From UHGV virus genome UHGV-1617644: 11,654 nucleotides of DNA. One strand, written 5' to 3'. Positions 1-11,654 of this stretch are shown piece by piece; positions within the stretch are counted from its first letter, which is position 1, and each line of letters starts with the position of its first letter. Under the pieces are notes generated by a model, which saw nothing but the letters and a program-made list of their open reading frames with translations, made no database searches and was not told the DNA's origin. Source of the stretch: a virus. The position numbers and the translations under genes were made by a program.

Positions 1-17
1 TCTGACTGAGAGTTTAC

Positions 18-560
18 TCACTTAGCCGCGTGTCCACTATTGCTGGGTAAGATCAAACCAGATGGAACTGTATCTGATGGCCACGGGATCGGGGCACCTA
101 CAGGAAAGGTCGAATTATTTTCCAAACCAAGATATTTAAGGACATCAGCAACAGAGCTTTTTGCCAAAATATCTCGCCCAACCTGTGTCAGGTCAGCCAA
201 ATTAGCGGTATCTTGATTGGTAAAATACGGTAATTTGTTTTCGGATGCTGAAAGATTAGCAAGTGCGGTAAGTATGGCATTAATTCTCTGATAGTTCTTA
301 TCTAATGCAGACGACATTTTTGCGATAAAGCCGGCCTGATCGCCATCGTCCTGTACATCCAGTCCACTTTCATTTGCTGTATATTGTGCTATTGCAGATG
401 CAATAAAGCTGGCCTGCCGAATAGCCTTGTTGACTTGCGCGCTGGATGCTTTCCCTGCTGTAAATCCTGATAAAAGCGCAGGCAACGCTTCCCATTCCTC
501 CTGCGACATAACATTGGCATTTTTACCCGTTGCGAATGCTTTAAAGTCATTTTTTGCCAT
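18..560 (-). CDS. Tail fibre protein, conserved N-terminal (constant) region only (180 aa from ATG at 560; track ORF starts at 578)
   Basis: Contains ...KLPYFTNQDTANLADLTQVGRDILAKSSVADVLKYLGL..., which matches my recollection of the conserved PYFT...VGRDILAK...YLGL segment of P2 gpH / Mu S-type fibres. The ATG at 560 has GGGGAG 10 nt upstream and overlaps the upstream stop. The ORF stops only 24 codons after the motif, at nt 18-20. Confidence 0.65.
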   Translation of the reverse strand: MAKNDFKAFATGKNANVMSQEEWEALPALLSGFTAGKASSAQVNKAIRQASFIASAIAQYTANESGLDVQDDGDQAGFIAKMSSALDKNYQRINAILTALANLSASENKLPYFTNQDTANLADLTQVGRDILAKSSVADVLKYLGLENNSTFPVGAPIPWPSDTVPSGLILPSNSGHAAK

Positions 561-1240
561 CAGAGTAATACTCCCCATGCCCCTACATCAAAACCACTGA
601 TAAATTCGTTATCCATATCAAAACCAAAAAATTTTGAACCTTCCGATGGGGTTTCCACCGAAGGTGTTTCAATGCCACCCGCCCACACCCCGGCGGCTTT
701 TACTGTGAGATATCCCTGTTTAATTGCAGCAATTAACTCACGCGATACATCTGAAATATCAGTATCAGGAAAGACCCAGACCGATATCGTCATGTCCTGG
801 TTATCGACAATCTGCATTCGCAGCCCGGATCCTGCTGTTGCAGCGTCAAGAATTGCCGGAAGCGAATCATTCCGTCCGTCCCAGTTATTAATCGCAATCT
901 TCGCTTTAAGAATGACACGATAAGTTTCATCGCTGAGATACATGTATCCTGAATCAGGATCGTATGGTCCCCGCCATACCCCCTGATCATATCCAAGCCC
1001 GTCGGTATCCCAGCTGAAATAGACACCTGAGATAGGCTGGCTGACAACACGGCTACGTCCGATCCACAATCCAAGAATGTCAAGTTGCACACCAACCGCA
1101 GAGTCAATATCAAATGCAGTAATCAGCCCTCTGGTGGCAGCCGCAACATCAATAAGTGGCCGGGTCATCAGATCAACATGCGCAAGAAATTTAGGTTTGG
1201 TGGCGTGGTAGTTCGTGATTAGTTCGGTGTATTTGCTCAT
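560..1240 (-). CDS. Tail/baseplate protein, P2 gpI / Mu gp48-position equivalent (226 aa)
   Basis: Sits between baseplate J and the tail fibre; its TGA overlaps the fibre ATG (TGATG). Synteny-based. Confidence 0.6.
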   Translation of the reverse strand: MSKYTELITNYHATKPKFLAHVDLMTRPLIDVAAATRGLITAFDIDSAVGVQLDILGLWIGRSRVVSQPISGVYFSWDTDGLGYDQGVWRGPYDPDSGYMYLSDETYRVILKAKIAINNWDGRNDSLPAILDAATAGSGLRMQIVDNQDMTISVWVFPDTDISDVSRELIAAIKQGYLTVKAAGVWAGGIETPSVETPSEGSKFFGFDMDNEFISGFDVGAWGVLL

Positions 1241-2436
1241 GACTCCACCGTTATAACGATATTTTCCGGGGTACAGGACGCAGATTCGTTGTATCTGATA
1301 TCAATGTTTGATGACGACAAAGCCCCCGGGGATTTCCCAATCGTCAGTTCCTGAATATCGTAATAGCGTGCATTCCCGCCACTCACCACGCCAAGATTCG
1401 CCGGTGAGTAAATGCGACTTAAAAGGACCGAATCACCAATCATCAGACTATTGATATAGCCGGAAATAGCCTGCTGGATCTGCTGCCCTATCTGTGAGGT
1501 ATAACCCGTAAAAACTTTTAATTTAATCCGGGCATAAACAGGCACATCACTAGAGCGCGAGAATTTGATTACATGGGGATTGCCGTATTTATCCGGAACC
1601 GTAACGGATGTTGTACCGTGAGTGGCTGTCCCCTGGCCTTTATTCCCTCTGATAGCCTGAGCAATATCCGTCACATCACCGCCATCCACAATTACAGCAA
1701 CAGAGTGTGGCGGTAACCCGTTACCGTCCTCCGAACCAGTATCGTTTTCATAGAGTTTGTGGCGAGTTACACCGGTAACATTAGAAACAGCACCATCCAG
1801 TGCTTCAAATGGGGTTATTGATGGCAACGCAACACTTTGCGACTGACGGATACGTAACTCCGCGTCAGTTTCTGCCGGAGTGCCCACAGTAGCCGCAGCA
1901 GGATTGGTTACCGAAACCCAGCCACGGGTTGGCGTATTTATTTCAGTGATAGTTCCAGCCAGCGCCGCCACTGCACCACTGACGGAACATGTTGCGGTCG
2001 CCATCACTGTACCATCCACGCCGACCACTACTGAAGCAGGCAAACGCCATATCACATTATTACTGTCTTTCACGCTGCCATTAATGATGGTTGTTCCGGC
2101 AGTTCCTGTAAGAAGCAAATCAACCGTAGAATTCGTCGCGCCTTTACGTGAAATACCATTTATTTTCACGTTACTGGTCAGTGCGGCCCCATAGCCGGTT
2201 GCTGGTGAAAAACAGTTGTAGACAGTTATCGCCATATTATTGGCATCATGAATCGCCAGCGCCATCAGAGCCACCATCTGGCCGTCTTTACTGTCCGGTT
2301 CGAGGTAGGCATCACTACCATAAATCTGCTGAAAATAGCTAATCAGGGTGCTGAGTATCGTCTGATAATCAGGCGCACTGATCCCCTCCGCGGTTACCTT
2401 TGCAGATAAACCGAGAGAATCAAGGTTCAGAGCCAT
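1237..2436 (-). CDS. Baseplate J-like protein (399 aa)
   Basis: Largest baseplate ORF, in the gpJ position between the wedge and gpI-like genes; 4-nt overlap with the next gene. Synteny-based. Confidence 0.65.
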   Translation of the reverse strand: MALNLDSLGLSAKVTAEGISAPDYQTILSTLISYFQQIYGSDAYLEPDSKDGQMVALMALAIHDANNMAITVYNCFSPATGYGAALTSNVKINGISRKGATNSTVDLLLTGTAGTTIINGSVKDSNNVIWRLPASVVVGVDGTVMATATCSVSGAVAALAGTITEINTPTRGWVSVTNPAAATVGTPAETDAELRIRQSQSVALPSITPFEALDGAVSNVTGVTRHKLYENDTGSEDGNGLPPHSVAVIVDGGDVTDIAQAIRGNKGQGTATHGTTSVTVPDKYGNPHVIKFSRSSDVPVYARIKLKVFTGYTSQIGQQIQQAISGYINSLMIGDSVLLSRIYSPANLGVVSGGNARYYDIQELTIGKSPGALSSSNIDIRYNESASCTPENIVITVES

Positions 2437-2789
2437 TACGCCTCCGATGTAACAGTCGTTATTCCATAAAGAGTGTCGATTTCAGCGGAAAACATGACAC
2501 GTCGGGTCGTGGTATCCAGCGTCGTATTGAAAGAGAGGATTGATTTAACGCCCTGCGTTTCGAGGATGCGCTTACGGATCGCCAGGTTGTAGGTTTCCGG
2601 CTTCTGCTTACCGAGTACGGACTGGATCCACGGAGTCCCCTCGGTGGTGTCGAGAAACCATTGCCCATACCACAATTCGAATCGCGTTTTTACCGCCTGC
2701 GCCACGGCCTCCGGTGAGTTAATCAGCCAGGTGTCATCACCGCAGCCAAAGGTGTAATCGCCATCGGCGTCTTCACGTCTGTATCGCAT
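2436..2789 (-). CDS. Baseplate wedge/assembly protein (117 aa; gpW / gp25-position equivalent)
   Basis: Translationally coupled between the spike and baseplate-J genes; size typical of gpW-like proteins. Synteny only; sequence not recognised. Confidence 0.5.
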   Translation of the reverse strand: MRYRREDADGDYTFGCGDDTWLINSPEAVAQAVKTRFELWYGQWFLDTTEGTPWIQSVLGKQKPETYNLAIRKRILETQGVKSILSFNTTLDTTTRRVMFSAEIDTLYGITTVTSEA

Positions 2790-3541
2790 CAGTTTACCCC
2801 GTCGGTACTGCTTTCACCGCGCTGAACACCACCATGAGTGTGCGTATCATCGATTGGCTTGCCGTTAGCCTTCACGCTCCCCAAAAACTCAACAGCACCA
2901 GTGATTTTTGAAGCCACACCAGAAACCACAGACCCCACCATGCCCCCCATCCAGGTTAACAGGCCATGAATGGTTACTTTCTCAGAAAAATCAGCCAGGG
3001 GGGCAACCACATCAAGCCCCCCCGGAGCGACAATTTTAATTTTCCTGGTATCAGGATTAAGCTCAAAATAGGTGCTGCCGTCGTCACTACGCAACTGTGT
3101 GGCACTGGTATTAATACCGCTAATCTTCCTAGCCTGCGACTGGGGACCGACAATACAAAACGCATCCGATAAATCATGCATTCTGTCATCGACCGGCTCC
3201 TGTATCCCGCCACTCTGCCACCAGAAATCAATACAACGATCGGCAAAAACGACAAGACACTCATCCCCGGCTTTAACCGGAAAAGTCAACGTACAGCCTC
3301 CGCCGCGCGGAAATACCACTGGCACATCCACCAGCAACGGGTAATTTTTGGTAATGCGGTTACCGTCGTTATCCTTTTCAACCGAACGGATAGCTGGCTG
3401 CACAACCGCCGTCACCGCGTCGGGATCGAATGACTGAACAATGCCAGGCAAGGCGACACGGATCTGGTTCTTTGTTGTTTCCCGTTCAGATTTGAATGTT
3501 TCGGCAAGGTCGCCGCTGCGGGTCTGGTCAGATACTGCCAT
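2789..3541 (-). CDS. Baseplate central spike protein (250 aa; P2 gpV / Mu gp45-like position)
   Basis: GGAG 8 nt before ATG; first gene of the spike-wedge-J-I-fibre block; C-terminal Gly-rich region with a THTH motif that I recall resembling the His-containing apex of gpV-type spikes. Confidence 0.6.
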   Translation of the reverse strand: MAVSDQTRSGDLAETFKSERETTKNQIRVALPGIVQSFDPDAVTAVVQPAIRSVEKDNDGNRITKNYPLLVDVPVVFPRGGGCTLTFPVKAGDECLVVFADRCIDFWWQSGGIQEPVDDRMHDLSDAFCIVGPQSQARKISGINTSATQLRSDDGSTYFELNPDTRKIKIVAPGGLDVVAPLADFSEKVTIHGLLTWMGGMVGSVVSGVASKITGAVEFLGSVKANGKPIDDTHTHGGVQRGESSTDGVN

Positions 3542-3560
3542 TTAGTAGGCTCCAGAAAGC

Positions 3561-3590
3561 AAAAAACCCGCCAGATGGCGGGTTTTTATT
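3561..3590. terminator. Rho-independent hairpin terminator, bidirectional by sequence (AAAAAA-CCCGCC-AGAT-GGCGGG-TTTTTATT)
   Basis: Perfect 6-bp GC-rich stem (3567-3572 / 3577-3582), 4-nt loop, A-tract upstream and T-tract downstream. On the minus strand it reads CCCGCC-ATCT-GGCGGG-TTTTTTGCTTT, about 20 nt after the 131-aa stop. Confidence 0.65.
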
Positions 3591-3606
3591 AATAAATCAG
3601 TTAGAC

Positions 3607-4002
3607 CTAAACGGCTACATCAGTCTTCATTTGTTCCCATTGAGAAAAAATTGTTTTTACTTCCAAGATTGATTGTTGTGCCATTGCTTTATTTATGCCA
3701 CAACTACTTAAATCATAATCAGCCTCATTCCGAGCTAACCTCTGTTGCTCAAGTTTGTAAGCCATAGATTTTAGACTTCGAGGATCATAGGGTTCCAGTT
3801 TATTTTCTCCCTTATTTTTAAGATAAGAGATAAGGCTGGCATGATGATCCCGAGTATAAGCAGGAAGACTAGTTAGATTATCTTTAATTTCATGGTAGAG
3901 AGCGTAATATGCTCGTGAAATAGCATTACGATAACCAATCTCACAATCTTCAGCAAAACAACGTTCGGCCGAAGACAAAAACTCAGAACTAGTTATAGGC
4001 AT
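3607..4002 (-). CDS. Small alpha-helical protein with HEPN-like signatures (131 aa), second gene of the cassette
   Basis: ATG at 4002 lies inside the last codons of the 256-aa ORF; weak SD AAGAG. Contains RAYYALYHE (residues 30-38, an R-x6-H spacing) and LARNEADYD (residues 89-97, R-N-x3-Y where HEPN families usually have R-x4-6-H). Assignment is from recalled motif patterns, not an HMM hit. Confidence 0.7.
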   Translation of the reverse strand: MPITSSEFLSSAERCFAEDCEIGYRNAISRAYYALYHEIKDNLTSLPAYTRDHHASLISYLKNKGENKLEPYDPRSLKSMAYKLEQQRLARNEADYDLSSCGINKAMAQQSILEVKTIFSQWEQMKTDVAV

Positions 4003-4759
4003 ATTTACACTCTTTTAATCCATTTCTTTCAACGGAAAATCTTGCTATCAGGTTACAATCATCAAGCAAATCGATCGAGCAGATTTCATCAGCAAGTCGC
4101 ATATTCATTGCAACAACCCGCTCTGGAGACGCCTTAACCACCTCAACCAAATACGTTCCACCAGACGCCCCGTTAATGTCCGCGCGATATTCAGTTGACG
4201 GGAATTCAGCCATAACTCTGTGCACAGCCAAGGCAACTTGCCTATATTGCTCTGAAGAGCACCCTGAATTTTTATAAGCTTCATCCATATCGTTAATTAC
4301 CTCCTGCAAGAAGGTTTCTGCGTCATCCCTATGCTCTTCTTCGGATAACATTTTGCAATGACGCCCTAAATACTCCACGCATTTCGATAGTTTCCCTACC
4401 AAGTACGCAACGCCGCCAGCTTTGTAAGTAAACCACTTTGTAGGAAACTTATCAGCTAAAGAATATATGTAGTAATCCAGTTTTTCGAGTAGAGAAAATC
4501 GCTCGAGAAGTTTACAAAAGATCCGTGCGAAATTAACGTCAGCATGTGGAAGGATGACCTCAAGCGACTCAATCCCAAAGAGCACCTCACCCTTAGCTAT
4601 ATAAGCCAACGCTACAAGTGCTTCAGCCATAGGAGTATGATTAGAACCATACTCCGAAACCACTTCTCGGAAAGTCCACATATCAAGTGGCTCCCCACTG
4701 TTGATTACATTAATCAACTGGTCAAAACGCTCTTCGGCTTTTAGTTTTGGTCTCGCCAC
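3989..4759 (-). CDS. Hypothetical protein (256 aa from GTG at 4759; alternatively 230 aa from ATG at 4681), first gene of a two-gene cassette
   Basis: Low-GC ORF with no motif I recognise; no nucleotidyltransferase GSxxRG...DxD motif and no CxxC zinc-finger spacing. GTG at 4759 has a weak SD; the in-frame ATG at 4681 has GGGGAG 9 nt upstream. Its 3' end overlaps the next gene by 14 nt. Confidence 0.7.
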   Translation of the reverse strand: MARPKLKAEERFDQLINVINSGEPLDMWTFREVVSEYGSNHTPMAEALVALAYIAKGEVLFGIESLEVILPHADVNFARIFCKLLERFSLLEKLDYYIYSLADKFPTKWFTYKAGGVAYLVGKLSKCVEYLGRHCKMLSEEEHRDDAETFLQEVINDMDEAYKNSGCSSEQYRQVALAVHRVMAEFPSTEYRADINGASGGTYLVEVVKASPERVVAMNMRLADEICSIDLLDDCNLIARFSVERNGLKECKYAYN

Positions 4760-4789
4760 AGTTCACTCACTACTTATTTTTTGTCAGAT

Positions 4790-4817
4790 TTTATGTTCGC
4801 GTATACAGTTTAGTCAA
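4790..4817 (-). promoter_or_regulatory. Candidate sigma70-type promoter for the two-gene cassette (-35 TTGACT, 16-nt spacer, -10 CATAAA)
   Basis: Read on the minus strand in the 173-bp AT-rich intergenic region upstream of the 256-aa ORF: TTGACT (4817-4812) and CATAAA (4795-4790). The -10 matches consensus at only 4/6; judged by eye. Confidence 0.3.
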
Positions 4818-4932
4818 TCCACATCTGATCTACTTAGTAGTTTCGCACAAAATCCCCCTTAGAAAATGAATCTCTAGATTTTACTACGAGCCCATTTCCC
4901 TGAAAAATCGAGGATTTTCTACTCTAGTGCCA

Positions 4933-5394
4933 TTAGAACCCTTTTGATTTTGCAACACGAATACCACCAGCCCAACCATTAAAATCAATCACATTACTAC
5001 CGGGGACAGGATTATTTGTGTTGAAAGCATATCTAGCACCAATTTTCCATGCTTGCGGACTAACACTAGGATCCTTTGACAGTTTTATCCACTCTTTCAT
5101 ACCGTTGTAAATATATTCCTGACAAGAATCCCGGGTTCCTTTGCGGTTGGTGTATGCGTCCAAATCATTACATTGCTGGAATGTGTTCCTGATGATGTCA
5201 GCGAAATCATCTAAGGTCATTGTAAAACGTCGCCCATTCATTGAGAAAAAAGGCTTCACAGATGCGTAATGTTGCCATTCCGTAAACTTTTGCTGCTCCA
5301 TCAGGTCGGCTGCTTTAAATTCAAACTTACCTGGTTCGGCAAAAGAAGTCGTAGAAATCAGCATCGTTATTGCAACTATCACCTGTTTTTTCAC
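4933..5394 (-). CDS. Secreted/periplasmic protein of unknown function (153 aa), accessory gene
   Basis: Classic Sec signal peptide MKKQVIVAITMLISTTSFA|EP; two Cys in the mature part (possible disulfide). GTG start 2 nt after the hub TAA with GGGGAG 7 nt upstream, so translationally coupled. Gene is visibly more AT-rich than the flanking tail genes. Confidence 0.7.
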   Translation of the reverse strand: MKKQVIVAITMLISTTSFAEPGKFEFKAADLMEQQKFTEWQHYASVKPFFSMNGRRFTMTLDDFADIIRNTFQQCNDLDAYTNRKGTRDSCQEYIYNGMKEWIKLSKDPSVSPQAWKIGARYAFNTNNPVPGSNVIDFNGWAGGIRVAKSKGF

Positions 5395-5396
5395 GC

Positions 5397-6461
5397 TTAC
5401 GCTCCCCGTTGCATTGCCAACTGGCTAGGTATATCGCTAGCCCCACGCGCTTCGCACATCATATCCATGTACCACGCCTGGCCCCTTGTGTCGCCAGTGT
5501 ACATAATCCCGCGAACAATATAAACGCCATCCGTTGCGATGCTGGCAGGCTGCGATGTGGTGCCGCTTAGCGTAATATTTCCGTCCGTGTTCTGGTCGGT
5601 GATCTGCCCACCAGCCATCGCAATATCGTTGTTCGACAACGCGGTACGATAGACGGAAGCCTGATCCAGCTGAATGAGCCCGTTAACCCGGATGTTCGGA
5701 TTAATAAGAGCGCGGACGTTTACGCCGTTGCCGATGGTCTGCTGCGGCATGCCAATAAGCCCGGTAGCACTGTTGAGCACAATCGCTTCGTGAACATATT
5801 CATTAGTCGCCACCATCTGGCGCTGACCGTCCACGAATTGCCATGTTGCGCCACATTGCCCGGCTACGTTATCCATTAGATGCCGCGTCATGCCAAAGAG
5901 CACCCGCCCCCGGGGGAATACAGTAGCAGGCATTTCAGGCGTCAGGCCTTCGGTCACACCTTTGGCTTCGAAGTCTTTCATCAGCGCACGGTTCACATCA
6001 GCGACCGTGTAACCGGCAGCCAGCGTCTGTGAGGTTATACTGGTGGCAAAAGCCAGATCAGTATCTGCTGCCTGAATCAGGACGTAGGAATCAACCGGAC
6101 TGTCTTTTCCTGTGACCGAGTAGCGAATTTCACCGCTGAAAATCAGTCCGTAGTTGCGCCCATCACTCTGGCCCACGTCCGCCGCGTCAACTTCCCGCAC
6201 TGTCCCGACGTCGCTTGCCGACACCTCCGGCGCGATACCGTCGTAACCCGCAATCAGACGCACTTTCGAAAACTCCTGCCCGGTAATTCGGTTCACAGTA
6301 TCTGCCGAAAGGTTATAAATTTTGATAGTCCCTACCCGGGACGCGCTGCTGATGTTGAACCAGTCGATCGTAAAGGTGACTTTAAAATCACTTAGCTCAA
6401 TTCCCTGACCGTTCCCGTCCACAAGCTGCAGCTCGAAATGTCTCATCCAGTTCTGTGACAT
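5397..6461 (-). CDS. Baseplate hub protein (354 aa; Mu gp44 / P2 gpD-like position)
   Basis: GGAG 5 nt before ATG; position immediately before the spike module and size fit a hub protein. Synteny-based call. Confidence 0.6.
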   Translation of the reverse strand: MSQNWMRHFELQLVDGNGQGIELSDFKVTFTIDWFNISSASRVGTIKIYNLSADTVNRITGQEFSKVRLIAGYDGIAPEVSASDVGTVREVDAADVGQSDGRNYGLIFSGEIRYSVTGKDSPVDSYVLIQAADTDLAFATSITSQTLAAGYTVADVNRALMKDFEAKGVTEGLTPEMPATVFPRGRVLFGMTRHLMDNVAGQCGATWQFVDGQRQMVATNEYVHEAIVLNSATGLIGMPQQTIGNGVNVRALINPNIRVNGLIQLDQASVYRTALSNNDIAMAGGQITDQNTDGNITLSGTTSQPASIATDGVYIVRGIMYTGDTRGQAWYMDMMCEARGASDIPSQLAMQRGA

Positions 6462-6463
6462 GC

Positions 6464-6766
6464 TTACTCCGTTGATACCAGTAAATGGCTGCGACCGCCC
6501 AGGTCAGTTTTTGTGGGGTAATCCTGTGTGTTGTCATCACAGACCACCACCAGCTTAAAACCAAGCCCCATACAGGCGTACTGCGCCAGCAGGTCAGCAC
6601 CAGTGACGAGAGGAATACCGGAGATTACCGGCTCCCCTCTGTCGTTCTGCAGGTCCATAATCCAGTACAGATCGCGCCATATGATGCTAATCCGCCAGGT
6701 GACACCACCCAGGACGATGCTGAACTGCTGGTTGTCCGCTGTCAGCGGAATTTCCTGAATTGTCAT
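6464..6766 (-). CDS. Small baseplate-associated protein (100 aa), function unassigned
   Basis: ATG overlaps the upstream stop (TAATG), G-rich SD upstream; translationally coupled between the post-TMP gene and the hub gene. Confidence 0.55.
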   Translation of the reverse strand: MTIQEIPLTADNQQFSIVLGGVTWRISIIWRDLYWIMDLQNDRGEPVISGIPLVTGADLLAQYACMGLGFKLVVVCDDNTQDYPTKTDLGGRSHLLVSTE

Positions 6767-7353
6767 TAGCCGCCCCCCAGTAATGACGCCACGTTACCCG
6801 TGATGCTTTTCAGCAGTGAAGTATCTGGAGGTTTTGTGGTTTTGTTGCCGCTGTTCTGTACCGCCGACGTGCTGGCCCCTTCCTTCATGTTGGTTTTATC
6901 CGCGACGGTAATCTGCTGTGTCCGGGAGATAATGACCTCCCTCAGGGTGAGGACGGCGGACAGGACGTTTTCGGTTGTCTTGTCCGTCGTCACTTCCAGC
7001 GCCCGGATCAACATGTTGCTGTACAGCCGTTTACCGGTTACCACATCGAAGGGGATACGGCTTTCCTGCAGATCCAGTAGCTCCTGATACGTCTGCTGAG
7101 GACTCAGGCCGAGCTGGCTGGTAGCCGTCAGATTACTGGCAAAATCCAGCAATGCGCCGCCACCGGCGAAACCAACCTCCATCACCACTTCTGACGGTTT
7201 TTTATAGGCATGATCAGCGACAGCGGCCCCGACCTCTACCGGATGCTCTGTTATTTCAAGCATATCTGTATGCTTCTCTGAAATAACAACACTGGGAACA
7301 ATCATTCCTATTTTTCTGCTCTGCTGATGAAAAAGTGTAGAGAGAATATCCAC
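6766..7353 (-). CDS. Post-tape-measure tail/baseplate assembly protein (195 aa), function unassigned
   Basis: GTG start overlapping the TMP stop (TAGTG) with GAGG upstream. Sits where Mu/P2-type clusters carry a tail-completion or DNA-circulation-like protein; no motif recognised. Confidence 0.55.
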   Translation of the reverse strand: MDILSTLFHQQSRKIGMIVPSVVISEKHTDMLEITEHPVEVGAAVADHAYKKPSEVVMEVGFAGGGALLDFASNLTATSQLGLSPQQTYQELLDLQESRIPFDVVTGKRLYSNMLIRALEVTTDKTTENVLSAVLTLREVIISRTQQITVADKTNMKEGASTSAVQNSGNKTTKPPDTSLLKSITGNVASLLGGG

Positions 7354-9362
7354 TAACCCACCCTCACCTGATTACTTCGCATGACCTGAGCATTTGCAGA
7401 CTGTTGCCGACGTGCAACCTCATTACCGACAGCGTGCGGATCTCCGCCACCGTAAATGTGGTAAGTATTTTGCTGGTTAACCTCTGTCATTTTGCCACTA
7501 ATTCCCGCCACGGCAGCCTTATTAATCAGCTCTCGAGAATAGATATTTCTTCCATTTTCATGCTGGATAATGCTGCTCATCAATGCTGACATGGTTTGCG
7601 GATCGCTCATATTCAGGGCAGCCCGGGGATCCACTCCCAGTCGTTGCGATACAGCCCTGATATACGCAGTTGTGTTGTTATTATCAGACGCAGGTGCCCA
7701 GGTAGAGATAATTTTCTCCACACTGTTTATTCCCCGTCCGGCGTACAGCATTAACTGACGAGCAAGAGCCCGTAATCCATCAAAAGCAGTTTCAAATCTG
7801 GCAAATCGCCCGCCCGGGCGTTCAAGAGAAGCCCCTGCCTGACCAGCAAAATTAAGGTTTCCCGGATTGTTATTCCGTTCTCCTCGTTTCGTAGCCTGTG
7901 CATATTGTTCCGGCTCATCATCACCAAACCAGCCGCGTACCGTCCGGCCCACACTGCGGGGATCGAATCCCCAGTGCTCTTTAATCCAGTCGGCAGTACT
8001 GTTAGCGCTGTCTGTAACCATCGGCATCGCTGACGGATTTTCGCTGCCCTGATTAAGTATCTGTTTGCCGATGCTGACGGCATCAGCCCAGCGGCCATCT
8101 TTGATAGCGTTGAGCAGGTCGGCGATCATGTTCAGCATTTTGCTGAATTCGCCCATCTGGTCGATGAAGTTGCTGAAATCCCACTTCAGGGACCATGATT
8201 TGGGGTCAATATTGAGCAGTTTCGCCAGCGCTTTCACCAGTTCATTAACAGACCCTTTCAGGTCACGAACCATCTTCAGCGCGGCATCGACCTCCGGCTT
8301 CCACTTGCCCCAGTCAATCAGGCTGTCGCCGCCTTCCTTCCAGGTCTGATAGTCCTCCCACAGAAGGGCAATCCCCGCCGCCAGCGCGGTAATGAGGCCA
8401 ATCGGCGACATCCAGAACGTACTGTTCAGAATGCGCAGCGCAATCGTCAGCGCGCCAAACAGCGAGATGAGCTCCCGCGTTTGCTTATCCAGCGATTGCC
8501 ACCAGGTGATAAGGCTGGATGTTCCCTCAATTAGCCTGAAGAACAGCCGCCCGATGATGTCTCCGAGCGCCAGAATGCCTTTTATGGCTTTCGTCAGGGT
8601 CTGCTCGATGCGCGGGAAGTTATCGAGGATGTGGCGGCGCAGTGTGTCCAGCGAACCCGCCAGACCACCAGCAAGATTAGAGCCGATTTTGTCACGGGCC
8701 ATGCCTGCCATCGCGCCGAACTCGCGCAGGGAGGTCATAAATTTGTTGGAGCTTCTGGCCGCCTCGTCAGCATTGAAGCCGATAGCTTTCGCCATTGCGC
8801 TGTACTGCCCGGAGAAGCCACCCACACCCCGGCGCATCGCCATAAGGGTATTTTCGTCAATGCCCAGCATCTGCGCATACTGGTTAGCCCGGTAATACGG
8901 CATGCCGCTGAGCTTCTGGCCTACACCTGTAAAAATAGAGGCCATGTCACGCATGTTACCGCTGGCATCCCGTGTCTGTACCCCTAGGCGATTCAGAAAT
9001 CCCTCTGCACCGGGATTGTTACGAATAAACCGGGAGAGGCTTTCCAGAGAAGAGCGCGCAGCGTCTGCACTGCCGCCAACCTGCGAAACCGCATAGCCAA
9101 TAGACTGAATTCCATGGACCGTCGCGCCGGTGCGCTGTGACGCCCAGTAAAGATTATCCAGACCGGAGGCGATCTTAGCCGTGAAGGCCACCACGGACAG
9201 TGCAGTTCCTTCGACGGCCAGCCCCATTTTGATGACATTTGCAGTTGTACCGGCGAGGACAGAACCGAACTTTTTCGCTCCTGCATCATCCACACTGAAG
9301 CCAAGCGAGACGAGGAAATCTTTAATAGTTTCAGCGTTCATTATCCTATCTCCATTTCTCAA
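7353..9362 (-). CDS. Tail tape measure protein (669 aa by track; likely true start at the ATG at 9341)
   Basis: Longest ORF, directly after the chaperone/frameshift pair; Ala/Gly/Ser-rich with hydrophobic central segments (e.g. LISLFGALTIALRIL..., IGLITALAAGIALLW). GGAG lies 8 nt before the second ATG (MNAETIK...), so the first 7 codons of the track ORF are probably not translated. Confidence 0.85.
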   Translation of the reverse strand: MRNGDRIMNAETIKDFLVSLGFSVDDAGAKKFGSVLAGTTANVIKMGLAVEGTALSVVAFTAKIASGLDNLYWASQRTGATVHGIQSIGYAVSQVGGSADAARSSLESLSRFIRNNPGAEGFLNRLGVQTRDASGNMRDMASIFTGVGQKLSGMPYYRANQYAQMLGIDENTLMAMRRGVGGFSGQYSAMAKAIGFNADEAARSSNKFMTSLREFGAMAGMARDKIGSNLAGGLAGSLDTLRRHILDNFPRIEQTLTKAIKGILALGDIIGRLFFRLIEGTSSLITWWQSLDKQTRELISLFGALTIALRILNSTFWMSPIGLITALAAGIALLWEDYQTWKEGGDSLIDWGKWKPEVDAALKMVRDLKGSVNELVKALAKLLNIDPKSWSLKWDFSNFIDQMGEFSKMLNMIADLLNAIKDGRWADAVSIGKQILNQGSENPSAMPMVTDSANSTADWIKEHWGFDPRSVGRTVRGWFGDDEPEQYAQATKRGERNNNPGNLNFAGQAGASLERPGGRFARFETAFDGLRALARQLMLYAGRGINSVEKIISTWAPASDNNNTTAYIRAVSQRLGVDPRAALNMSDPQTMSALMSSIIQHENGRNIYSRELINKAAVAGISGKMTEVNQQNTYHIYGGGDPHAVGNEVARRQQSANAQVMRSNQVRVG

Positions 9363-9971
9363 TGCGCCGCTGGTTATCCGCTTTTACCGCCAGATGGTCA
9401 TTCAAGAGAGCAATGTCGTACAAATCGACAGAGCCATCTTTAAGTGCTGTATAAGGAATTAACCCGGCGTCAACCGGATTGAGAAGGTAGGACAGCCCGT
9501 CCGGCAGGCTGTTAAACGTCAGCCCTGTTGCAGACTCTGCGTCGTGCTGGTAAGGGGTGTAGGCAAAAAATTTCCCAGCGAATCGGCGACCACCCGCGCC
9601 ACCAGCTGCAGCATGACCAGCAGGTCAATATCATCAAACATCAGTTCGCCCTTGGTAAATACCGGCACCCATCCGTCCATATGACGCCGCGACACCACCG
9701 CAAGACAGGGATGAATAATCGCTTCGGTGTCATCTTCGGTCAGGGAAGACAGTTCCTCAGCGATACGCGGGAGCATGGTTTCAAACACCGGTTTTAACTG
9801 CTCGAATTTCACGGTTTCGATTTTGCCGTCAGCAGGCAAACGGGAGCGAATGCTCCCGAAATCTGACATCATTCCCGCCAGTACCGGCAGAAGTTTGCGG
9901 GTCACTTTCAGCTGGTCAAAAACGCTGAGTTTTGCCACGCGATATTTCACGCCTTTAATTTCGAATTCCAT
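9346..9971 (-). CDS. Predicted -1 frameshift fusion product of the chaperone (GT / E+E' analogue, about 208 aa)
   Basis: Hand translation: the -1 frame is open for 75 codons from the slippery site to TAG at 9348-9346 (KFFAYTPYQHDAESATGLTFNSLPDGLSYLLNPVDAGLIPYTALKDGSVDLYDIALLNDHLAVKADNQRRIEKWR); the +1 frame hits TAA almost immediately. This ORF has no ATG, so it is absent from the supplied ORF track. Confidence 0.55.
9519..9971 (-). CDS. Tail assembly chaperone, short in-frame product (lambda gpG / P2 gpE analogue, 150 aa)
   Basis: Lies between tube and tape measure; GGGGAG 9 nt upstream of ATG; a slippery heptamer sits near its 3' end and an open -1 frame runs into the TMP start (see frameshift features). 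Confidence 0.7.
   Translation of the reverse strand: MEFEIKGVKYRVAKLSVFDQLKVTRKLLPVLAGMMSDFGSIRSRLPADGKIETVKFEQLKPVFETMLPRIAEELSSLTEDDTEAIIHPCLAVVSRRHMDGWVPVFTKGELMFDDIDLLVMLQLVARVVADSLGNFLPTPLTSTTQSLQQG
9564..9576 (-). promoter_or_regulatory. Programmed -1 ribosomal frameshift slippery site (mRNA GGGAAAUUUUUUG)
   Basis: In the chaperone frame the codons are CUG GGA AAU UUU UUG, so G_GGA_AAU fits the X_XXY_YYZ pattern, with overlapping A_AAU_UUU and U_UUU_UUG heptamers. As I recall it, lambda G/GT uses the near-identical G_GGA_AAG. Confidence 0.55.
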
Positions 9972-9974
9972 GTA

Positions 9975-10415
9975 TTAAAACTCCCCGAGAACCTGGTCAA
10001 TCTTGCCGCAGTCAAACACCCACGGCATCGTATTACCGGTTTTAGCGTTGGCGTTATCCGGTTGTTTCTGGAACGCAACACTGCGTGCCGTGATGATGTC
10101 GCCGCTGACCTTGTTGCGGATCACGATAACGTTATTCCCCCATGTGGCAGAAGACTGGCTCTGTGCGTTATACGCCAGCGACAATTTTTTATTTGTCGGT
10201 GATGTCTTCAGAAGGTTAACGGTAATCGTCCCGCTTTTATCTGCATGGAGGCTGTGCATCACTTCGCCATCAGCACCGATGGTCATGGTGTTTTTAGGAC
10301 CGCCCATCGCAACCACAATCCCCTCCTCAGAACTTGCCGAACCGTACCCGAGGTCAATCGAACCGGTCGGCCCGGTCAGCGTCGCAGTGACATCCATAAA
10401 AGAATAGGTAGACAT
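9975..10415 (-). CDS. Tail tube protein (146 aa)
   Basis: Small ORF directly after the sheath gene; SD GGGGAAG between sheath stop and ATG. Position and size typical of myovirus tube proteins. Confidence 0.6.
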   Translation of the reverse strand: MSTYSFMDVTATLTGPTGSIDLGYGSASSEEGIVVAMGGPKNTMTIGADGEVMHSLHADKSGTITVNLLKTSPTNKKLSLAYNAQSQSSATWGNNVIVIRNKVSGDIITARSVAFQKQPDNANAKTGNTMPWVFDCGKIDQVLGEF

Positions 10416-10425
10416 TCACTTCCCC

Positions 10426-11571
10426 TTAGCGAACAACGTTAATCTGTACGTCAGCGTAATGAACCGCGCCTGCAAGTTTTATTGCAGCCTGAATCACCGG
10501 AGCCTTACGGGCTTCACGTTCTGATTGTGCCTGTTCATCCAGCGGCTGGGCGTATACGTAATAACCTTTGGGCAGCGTGTCACCTGATGACAACTGCCCA
10601 AGGTTGCCACCGTTCCATACGCCCGGAGCAATCAGTCCATTCTGAACAGCCTGATCCAGTGATTTTTCTACATTTGATAACAGTCGGGTAATACCGGCTT
10701 CAGTCTGGGGAACTTTCGTGGTGCTGGTATAAAGCAGGTTATAGAGGTTGGTCTGCACATAATTCTGTAACCAGTCCAGGCCGTGGCGTTCATCAAAGAA
10801 ATCGCCGTTAGCCATCACTCCCTGCTGGAGGATAGCTGTATCATTCTGGTAGTACACGAACACATTGCAGTTTTTTGCATCAAGTGCCGATGCCTGGCTG
10901 ACTGTCAGTGTTTCATACCCGACACCCGGCTCCTGCTTAAACTTGAGCGTAATCGCGGTATTACTGCCATTGAAATTAACCGTGAATGCCCGGCCAAATG
11001 CAGATAACGCAGCGTATTTATTACCCGATGAATACTGAATAAAACTGCGTGAATATCCGGCGGTTTTCAGTTTTGATGCCAAATCATCGCTGGATGCAGT
11101 CTGCAGGCATTTCTCATCGCTTGTCGTAATCGCCAGAATACGGCTTACAGAAGAGGATTCGATCGCCGCAGCCACTTTCAGCCAGTCTGCATCCGGAATA
11201 TCTTCATCGTCTGCAATCCCCAGCCCATACCATGAAGTATAATCGAGCATGGCATTCACAGCCTGCTCCAGCGTCTCAGGCGTGGCCTGTTCGCTGTCTC
11301 CCTTCGTTTTCACCCAACGACCAACAAAAACCTCCTGAGGTTTCGGTGATTGTGAGAAAAACACCTGCGCAGCCTTATATTCTGGTGATTCCACGCCAAA
11401 ATCTTTTCCAATATCTTCCGCGGCAGAATAACGACGAATGCGCTCACTTACCGGAATGATTGTGGACGGGCCGAGAATGAGTAATGCACCAAAATTTCGC
11501 CCTGATGCTGCACGCGGCGACATGATCACATCAACATTAACAACGTTTGATACAGGCAAGCCCTGTGCCAT
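10426..11571 (-). CDS. Tail sheath protein (381 aa)
   Basis: First gene of the sheath-tube-chaperone-TMP series; GGAG 8 nt upstream of the ATG; size fits a contractile sheath subunit. Assigned by synteny, not by a motif. Confidence 0.6.
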
Positions 11572-11574
11572 AGC

Positions 11575-11654
11575 TTAATCTCCGAAAAAGATGACTGGTG
11601 CTTCCACCAGCGATTTAATACCGTACTCGCGCACAACCTTCCGGCGCAGGCGCA
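11575..11654 (-). CDS. 3' end (about 26 codons) of an upstream late gene, truncated by the window edge; product unknown
   Basis: Hand translation of the minus strand gives an open frame ...RLRRKVVREYGIKSLVEAPVIFFGD ending in TAA at 11577-11575, 3 nt before the sheath ATG; the sheath SD (GGAG) lies inside its last codons. Confidence 0.4.
   Translation of the reverse strand, partial: RLRRKVVREYGIKSLVEAPVIFFGD

What the first reader, a model, noticed from the sequence alone, without database searches (positions are those of the whole stretch)
1..130. Tail fibre ORF ends just after its conserved constant-region motif, at the window edge
Fibres of the P2 gpH / Mu S type normally continue for hundreds of residues after the VGRDILAK...YLGL segment into a receptor-binding region; this ORF stops after ...FPVGAPIPWPSDTVPSGLILPSNSGHAAK. 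In Mu, P1 and e14 this junction is where the fibre enters a DNA-invertase-controlled invertible segment. The fibre may be truncated, split from a separate receptor-binding protein, or adjacent to an invertible region just outside the window.
Basis: partly seen in the sequence, partly recalled or inferred. Interest (0 to 1): 0.45.

Follow-up and report, generated by a model that had tools for sequence, protein, structure and literature searches.

The report
Prophage tail fibre gene cut by IS3
The short tail-fibre gene at the window edge is an ordinary prophage fibre gene interrupted by a copy of the insertion sequence IS3, which removes its receptor-binding half; it is not a naturally short fibre or an entry into an invertible segment.

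Summary
The ORF is real: window 560..18 on the minus strand (578..18 from the first in-frame ATG). It ends ...VPSGLILPSNSGHAAK*. The reason it ends there was missed. Window 55..1 is the left terminal inverted repeat of IS3: it is identical to thousands of IS3 copies in E. coli, and the IS3 transposase gene starts 11 nt beyond the window edge. The last 12 residues and the stop codon are encoded by IS3.

An uninterrupted twin prophage (L010, GCA_014355795.1) is identical to window 56..7240. There the fibre runs on for 358 aa. Its residues 143-358 match the T4 gp37 receptor-binding tip (PDB 2xgf, E 2.5e-79). After it come a tail-fibre assembly gene, an acetyltransferase gene and a short relic of a Pin invertase. 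The twin has no intact invertase and no partner crossover site.

The N-terminal part matches the constant part of P1 S, and that match ends exactly at cixR (the YLGL motif). Sibling prophages do carry a live e14-type pinE segment at that spot. In this lineage the site is degenerate (11/16).

Verdict: a recent, strain-private IS3 insertion has made the fibre gene a pseudogene. This is ordinary and of low interest.

The parts
18..560 (-). Truncated tail-fibre CDS of 180 aa: 168 phage-encoded residues plus 12 IS3-encoded residues plus the stop. The ORF listing gives 18..578 from an upstream in-frame ATG.
   Evidence: The start at MAKNDF matches the gene calls in L004, L009 and L010. PHROG tail-fibre families match only up to residue 171 or earlier.
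56..560 (-). Phage-derived part of the fibre gene (codons 1-168 plus the first base of codon 169). It holds the P1-Sc-like N-terminal module (aa 16-147) and the first 26 residues of the gp37-like tip module.
   Evidence: 100% identical to the empty-site twin L010. P1 S match. 2xgf matches only aa 143-172.
1..55 (-). Left end of IS3: the terminal inverted repeat IRL, starting TGATCTTACCCAGC..., plus the leader. The IS3 orfA start lies 11 nt beyond window position 1.
   Evidence: The 60-mer window 60..1 hits 14,667 places in 3,956 of 5,426 E. coli genomes. It lies next to genes annotated 'IS3-like element IS3 family transposase'. The boundaries of a 1258-bp reference copy were defined.
18..20 (-). 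TGA stop codon of the fusion ORF, lying inside the IS3 terminal repeat.
56..58 (-). GTT, the predicted 3-bp target-site duplication (left copy). The right copy would lie beyond the window.
   Evidence: Inference. The empty site in L010 reads ...CCATCTGGTT|ATGCTCTG. Reference IS3 copy L002 has a 3-bp duplication.
117..142 (-). Degenerate relic of a Cin/Pin-type 26-bp crossover site, on the codons for LKYLGLENN. The central TT is at 130..129.
   Evidence: It is the position homologous to P1 cixR and to the L004/e14 crossover repeat TTGGTTTGGGAGAAGG (PMC12529663). Only 11 of 16 bases match that repeat. The window has no match at 3 mismatches or fewer, and L010 has no inverted partner.
560..1240 (-). 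Upstream DUF2612 / baseplate wedge gene. Its stop codon overlaps the fibre start by 1 nt. Included as context.
   Evidence: Pfam PF11041, E 2.4e-47.

Best explanation
The window is the tail and baseplate module of an E. coli myovirus-type prophage, related to vB_EcoM-606R2 and SEN34-like phages, which in relatives is inserted next to yfhH. Its last structural gene is a modular tail fibre. The N-terminal module is homologous to the constant part of P1 S. The C-terminal module is a T4 gp37-like collar, needle and receptor-binding tip. A 1258-bp IS3 has transposed into codon 169, which is 14 residues into the collar domain. The IS3 is in the same orientation as the fibre gene.

Translation therefore runs 12 codons into the IS3 left inverted repeat (LILPSNSGHAAK) and stops at a TGA there. 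The product keeps the baseplate-proximal module but lacks the whole receptor-binding tip of about 190 aa. The downstream fibre chaperone gene (tfa) is separated from its operon.

Shown: the junction, the IS3 identity, the empty site and the content of the intact gene. Inferred: any particles made would be fibre-defective and unable to adsorb by this fibre. Inferred: the insertion is very recent, since there are zero substitutions against the empty-site twin over 7.2 kb. Inferred: the window ends there because the repeated IS3 broke the assembly, exactly 55 nt into the repeat.
For: Identity of the edge sequence:
- Window 55..1 is 100% identical to the IS3 left end, which occurs in 3,956 of 5,426 complete E. 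coli genomes at a median of 4 copies per genome.
- The annotated IS3 transposase CDS begins 11 nt past the matched 60-mer.
- A reference copy is 1258 bp long, with IRL TGATCTTACCC..., IRR TGATCCTACCC... and a 3-bp duplication.

Empty site:
- L010 is identical to window 56..7240. The only differences are a 6-nt spurious alignment extension at the junction.
- L010 continues ...[21 protein letters not shown]... to give a 358-aa fibre.

What is lost:
- Intact homologues carry the Pfam Collar domain at aa 155-202. The window protein has no Pfam hit.
- L010 aa 143-358 match T4 gp37 (PDB 2xgf) at E 2.5e-79. The window keeps only aa 143-172 of that match.

Homologues:
- There are 2,937 homologues. In the 120 listed, most are 280-313 aa and nearly all carry a precomputed Collar hit. 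Most of the shorter ones that carry a source name are labelled partial. Among the best matches coverage stops at 94-95% of the query, short of the last 12 residues.
- No PHROG tail-fibre family matches beyond residue 171.
Against: The right end of the IS3 and the rest of the fibre gene lie outside the window. A simple insertion with a GTT duplication therefore cannot be told apart from an IS3-associated deletion or rearrangement.

The exact junction was not found in any other public sequence searched, so it rests on this one assembly. Loss of function of the prophage is inferred, not measured.
Confidence: 0.94

Rival explanations
1. The fibre gene enters a Gin/Cin/Pin-type invertible segment just outside the window. 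On this view the ORF end reflects one orientation of a switchable C-terminus.
For: The N-terminal module is homologous to P1 Sc up to cixR. Close sibling prophages (L004, 99.3% identical over window 400..11654, and phage vB_EcoM-606R2, L005) have pinE or a DNA invertase, an inverted tfa and an inverted fibre fragment. Their e14-type crossover repeat sits on the LGL codons (PMC12529663).
Against: The ORF continues 22 codons past the homologous site in perfect identity with a non-invertible allele, and is then broken by IS3, not by a crossover site. The window's site matches only 11 of 16 bases, and the window has no match at 3 mismatches or fewer. The identical twin L010 and the complete genomes examined with this allele have only a 35-42-codon Pin relic and no inverted fibre or tfa genes; no partner site was found in L010 or L001, the two loci checked for one.
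Confidence: 0.03
2. It is a naturally short, complete fibre or adaptor protein of about 180 aa, with the receptor-binding function carried by a separate downstream protein.
For: None was found beyond the ORF length itself. A few short homologues (172-258 aa) appear in the protein search.
Against: Most of those short entries that carry a source name are labelled 'partial'. The two sequences read, P0002 and P0016, simply break off in mid-sequence. The last 12 residues are encoded by the IS3 inverted repeat. The identical twin has one continuous 358-aa ORF. The cut falls inside the Collar domain.
Confidence: 0.01
3. The fibre-IS3 junction is an assembly artefact: a chimeric join at a contig end. 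On this view the fibre is intact in the real genome.
For: The junction is unique to this window in every collection searched. Only 55 nt of IS3 are present, right at the edge.
Against: The join falls exactly at the first base of the IS3 IRL (TGATC...). That is what transposition produces, whereas a random chimera would rarely hit the element's terminal nucleotide. A 55-nt overhang into a repeat is what de Bruijn assemblers leave at a true boundary between unique and repeated sequence (inference).
Confidence: 0.02

Closest known systems
IS3 of Escherichia coli (IS3 family, 1258 bp) inserted into a prophage gene
   Same: The terminal 55 nt are identical to canonical IS3 copies. The insertion begins at the IRL terminal TG. 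Reference copies have orfA 11 nt further on, a length of 1258 bp and a 3-bp duplication.
   Different: Only the left end lies in the window. The transposase genes, the IRR and the duplicated target were not seen. This particular insertion site is not in any of the 5,426 complete E. coli genomes, in the GTDB species representatives or in the JGI metagenomes.
T4 gp37 long-tail-fibre tip (PDB 2xgf) and lambda-type side tail fibres, with their Tfa/gp38-type chaperones
   Same: In the intact twin, aa 143-358 align with the gp37 tip at E 2.5e-79, including the HxH repeats and the C-terminal NIAFNYIVRLA. tblastn identity to T4 gp37 is 62.7% over aa 150-358. A Caudo_TAP tail-fibre assembly gene follows.
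   Different: The window copy keeps only the first 26 residues of this module. The N-terminal attachment module is unrelated to that of gp37 and is P1-Sc-like.
P1 S / Cin, e14 StfP-StfE / PinE and Mu S / Gin invertible tail-fibre segments
   Same: The N-terminal module is about 38-40% identical to P1 Sc and ends at the position of cixR. Sibling prophages have the exact e14 crossover repeat TTGGTTTGGGAGAAGG at the same codons, together with pinE (PMC12529663).
   Different: In this fibre lineage the site is degenerate (11/16), has no partner, and the invertase is reduced to a C-terminal relic. The ORF end has nothing to do with inversion. Mu S and P2 H were not compared specifically.

Membership tests
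IS3 (IS3-family insertion sequence) | Terminal inverted repeat starting 5'-TG and matching the IS3 IRL | tested here: met
   Window 55..1 is identical to the IRL and leader of annotated IS3 copies. There are 14,667 matching places in E. coli genomes.
IS3 (IS3-family insertion sequence) | orfA-orfB transposase made by a programmed -1 frameshift | not testable with these tools
   It lies beyond window position 1. In reference copies the CDS, annotated 'IS3 family transposase, programmed frameshift', starts 11 nt after the matched 60-mer.
IS3 (IS3-family insertion sequence) | 3-bp target-site duplication flanking the element | not testable with these tools
   The right end is outside the window. 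The predicted duplication is GTT (window 58..56). Reference copy L002 shows a 3-bp duplication.
IS3 (IS3-family insertion sequence) | The element interrupts a target that is continuous elsewhere (an empty site exists) | tested here: met
   L010 is identical to window 56..7240 and reads straight through the site. L001, L006, L008 and L009 do the same at 96-98% identity.
Gin/Cin/Pin/Hin invertible tail-fibre segment | Intact serine DNA invertase gene next to the fibre genes | tested here: not met
   The window has none. The twin L010 has only a 35-codon diverged HTH relic, and L001 has a 42-codon relic nearly identical (41/42) to the PinE C-terminus. The source DNA beyond the IS3 was not seen.
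Gin/Cin/Pin/Hin invertible tail-fibre segment | Two inverted 26-bp crossover sites, one of them inside the fibre gene | tested here: not met
   The homologous site (window 142..117) matches 11 of 16 bases of the e14/L004 repeat. The window has no match at 3 mismatches or fewer. L010 has no inverted partner.
Gin/Cin/Pin/Hin invertible tail-fibre segment | Alternative fibre C-terminus and tfa genes in the opposite orientation | tested here: not met
   Absent from L010, L001, L006 and L008. Present in the sibling loci L004 and L005.
Gin/Cin/Pin/Hin invertible tail-fibre segment | Constant fibre part homologous to P1 Sc and ending at the crossover point | tested here: met
   The tblastn match of aa 16-147 to P1 S ends at the annotated cixR. 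The sequences are ...VGRDILAKTSILAVIQYLGL in P1 and ...VGRDILAKSSVADVLKYLGL here.
T4 gp37-type receptor-binding fibre tip (Collar domain plus HxH needle) | Complete Phage Tail Collar domain (PF07484) followed by the HxH needle and tip | tested here: not met
   The window protein has no Pfam hit and keeps only aa 143-168 of the module. The twin L010 and L001 meet the criterion: Collar at aa 155-202 in L001, and 2xgf at E 2.5e-79 for L010.
   Only P1 S was examined in detail. Mu and P2 did not appear among the 40 rows shown out of 787 phage records.

The most novel reading that the evidence does not exclude
The 180-aa stub might be more than debris. It consists of the P1-Sc-like attachment module plus a 12-residue IS3-encoded tail. 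It could be expressed and used, for example as a fibre-less baseplate cap or as a surface or decoy protein that interferes with other phages, as reported for e14 StfE2. Alternatively, the IS3 could have mediated a rearrangement that places a different receptor-binding module downstream. Nothing in the window excludes either reading, because the DNA beyond the IS3 was not seen.
Probability: 0.03. Interest if true: 0.35.

Novelty: already known. Interest (0 to 1): 0.08.

Why it matters
It matters mainly for annotation. The gene should be called a tail-fibre pseudogene disrupted by IS3, not a short fibre or the constant part of a phase-variable fibre. The prophage should be scored as probably adsorption-defective, even though the rest of its tail module looks intact.

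The locus is also a compact example of fibre modularity. A P1-Sc-like stem is joined to a T4 gp37-like tip at a decayed invertase crossover site, while sibling prophages still carry the live pinE switch there. That pattern is already well known.

Tried and rejected
Searches for the junction elsewhere, all negative:
- Left junction as a 41-mer and a 24-mer in GTDB genome contigs and in JGI metagenomes.
- Predicted right junction in metagenomes and in complete E. coli genomes.
- Exact-protein look-up of the 186-aa product.
- No complete E. coli genome covers more than 93% of window 1..700.

Other points:
- At first sight the 60-mer hits at 100% identity suggested that TGGTT belonged to the IS. 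The boundaries of the reference copy showed these were chance or selected flank matches, and that the IS starts at TGATC.
- The megablast extension to window 50 is a spurious gapped extension (TG-TC). The true breakpoint is between window 56 and 55.
- Pfam and PADLOC gave nothing decisive for the cargo ORFs.
- Structure prediction was not run, because sequence matches to 2xgf and to the empty-site twin already settled the question.

Full report
**Observation**

The minus strand of window 1..600 carries an ORF that ends ...YLGLENNSTFPVGAPIPWPSDTVPSGLILPSNSGHAAK*, with its stop codon at 20..18. The ORF listing starts it at 578. Gene calls in related loci start at MAKNDF instead. That is the ATG at window 560, which overlaps the stop of the upstream DUF2612 wedge gene by one base. 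The CDS is therefore 560..18, 180 aa.

**What the edge of the window is**

Read on the minus strand, window 55..1 is TGATCTTACCCAGCAATAGTGGACACGCGGCTAAGTGAGTAAACTCTCAGTCAGA. The 60-mer 60..1 matches 14,667 places in 3,956 of 5,426 complete E. coli genomes, with a median of 4 copies per genome. In two unrelated loci it is followed 11 nt later by a CDS annotated 'IS3-like element IS3 family transposase, programmed frameshift'.

On reference copy L002 the element is 1258 bp long. It begins TGATCTTACCC (IRL), ends with the inverted TGATCCTACCC (IRR), and is flanked by a 3-bp duplication. The window therefore ends 55 nt inside the left end of IS3, and the IS3 has the same orientation as the fibre gene.

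The residues LILPSNSGHAAK and the TGA stop are encoded by the IS3 inverted repeat. Fibre sequence stops after Gly168 plus one base (window 56).

**The empty site**

Homologous fibres in complete E. coli genomes align up to ...CCATCTGGTT and then continue ATGCTCTGATGCAGGG (...[11 protein letters not shown]...), not into IS3.

An exact-protein look-up of the neighbouring DUF2612 protein found L010 (GCA_014355795.1). L010 has the same cargo genes as the window and is identical to window 56..7240. The only 'mismatch and gap' are a spurious 6-nt alignment extension across the breakpoint.

In L010 the fibre is a continuous 358-aa ORF. It is followed by:
- a 192-aa tail-fibre assembly protein (phrog_105, E 1.7e-96);
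- a hexapeptide acetyltransferase gene on the other strand;
- a 35-codon diverged relic of an invertase HTH;
- a 215-aa ORF;
- the host gene yfhH.

Zero substitutions over 7.2 kb imply that the IS3 insertion is very recent.

The junction itself is private to this window. It is absent from all complete E. coli genomes, from the GTDB species representatives, from JGI metagenomes and from the exact-protein index.

**What was lost**

Intact homologues carry the Pfam Phage Tail Collar domain at aa 155-202. The window protein, cut at aa 168, has no Pfam hit.

L010 aa 143-358 align end to end with the crystallised receptor-binding tip of T4 gp37 (PDB 2xgf, E 2.5e-79), including the HxH repeats. The window protein keeps only aa 143-172 of that match. 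tblastn shows 55-75% identity of aa 150-358 to gp37 of T-even phages and to lambdoid side tail fibres.

There are 2,937 protein homologues. In the 120 listed, most are 280-313 aa and nearly all carry a precomputed Collar hit. Most of the shorter ones that carry a source name are labelled partial. Among the best matches coverage stops at 94-95% of the query, short of the last 12 residues. PHROG tail-fibre families likewise stop matching at or before residue 171.

The stub therefore keeps the baseplate-proximal module but lacks the whole receptor-binding tip. The chaperone gene is also displaced by the IS. The defect in adsorption is inferred, not measured.

**The invertase idea**

Residues 16-147 are about 38-40% identical to P1 S. 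The match ends at P1's annotated cixR, whose crossover lies in CC-TT-GG of the codons for YLGL. P1 reads ...VGRDILAKTSILAVIQYLGL and the window reads ...VGRDILAKSSVADVLKYLGL.

The closest complete-genome relative of the window as a whole is L004, 99.3% identical over window 400..11654. L004 and phage vB_EcoM-606R2 (L005) carry a different fibre C-terminus together with the following:
- an inverted tfa gene and an inverted fibre fragment in both, pinE in L004 and a shorter gene annotated 'DNA invertase' in L005;
- inverted repeats AAACCTTGGTTTGGGAGAAG on the ENLGLGEG codons, found in L004.

These repeats contain the e14 P-segment repeat TTGGTTTGGGAGAAGG reported in PMC12529663.

The window's fibre allele is a different, fixed one:
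- The homologous site (window 142..117; TTGGTTTGGAAAATAA at 130..115) matches only 11 of 16 bases. The window has no match at 3 mismatches or fewer.
- The twin has no inverted partner site.
- In L001, L006, L008 and L010, which carry this allele, the invertase is reduced to a 35-42-codon C-terminal relic beside an acetyltransferase gene.

In any case the ORF runs 22 codons past the site before the IS3 breaks it. Inversion therefore does not explain the ORF end.

**Mechanism and confidence**

The best explanation is IS3 transposition into codon 169 of a modular fibre gene (P1-Sc-like stem plus gp37-like tip), giving a read-through fusion that stops in the IRL. Confidence is about 0.94.

Not shown: the right IS3 end, the GTT duplication and the fate of the distal fibre and tfa genes in the source strain. 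An IS3-associated deletion or rearrangement cannot be excluded.

The IS3 overhang is exactly 55 nt, a common de Bruijn k value. This suggests that the window edge is a contig end at a repeat boundary (inference).

**Novelty**

This is ordinary. IS disruption of prophage genes, mosaic fibres and decayed or live Pin switches are all well known. The interest is for annotation only.

Noticed in passing
window 3607..5394 (-): Three cargo ORFs sit between the baseplate-hub gene (5397..6461) and the spike gene (2789..3541). They are a 153-aa ORF with a hydrophobic, signal-like N-terminus and no family hit, a 256-aa ORF (phrog_17809, function unknown), and a 131-aa weak HEPN-like ORF that the 256-aa ORF overlaps by 14 nt (Pfam HEPN E 0.002, below the cut-off; PADLOC HEPN_IX E 0.003). 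Relatives carry different genes in the same slot: L001 has a 113-aa ORF plus DUF4282, and L009 has ORFs of 110, 243 and 142 aa. This suggests a variable hot spot for morons or defence genes.
   Followed up: partly
window about 400, and L004 2080..2898: There is a mosaic breakpoint inside the fibre gene. The best complete-genome match, E. coli PS1Thumoskin9 (99.3%), stops matching at window 400, about fibre residue 54. From there the window follows the L001/L010 allele, while L004 carries an e14-type switchable fibre.
   Followed up: partly
L001 6141..7238; L006 and L008 equivalents: RefSeq/PGAP annotates the intact fibre of this allele as a partial pseudogene ('missing N-terminus', starting at the Collar region). 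In L001 and L010 the ORF is continuous from MAKNDF (365 and 358 aa), so the P1-Sc-like N-terminal module goes unannotated.
   Followed up: partly
L001 8451..8579; L010 9167..9274: These are relics of the Pin invertase C-terminal HTH. In L001, 42 codons are nearly identical (41/42) to the end of PinE. They lie next to a serine/hexapeptide acetyltransferase gene on the opposite strand, which appears to have replaced the invertible segment and the invertase catalytic domain.
   Followed up: partly
L010 7330..7560 compared with L001 6780..7100: The needle region of the gp37-like tip differs between otherwise close alleles. The number and sequence of the GTKTTSSFDYG and HxH repeat units vary, which is consistent with repeat-mediated variation of the fibre tip.
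   Followed up: no
window 1..55: The IS3 portion of the window is exactly 55 nt, a common assembler k-mer size. This suggests that the window's left end is a contig end produced by the multicopy IS3, which occurs at a median of 4 copies per E. coli genome.
   Followed up: no
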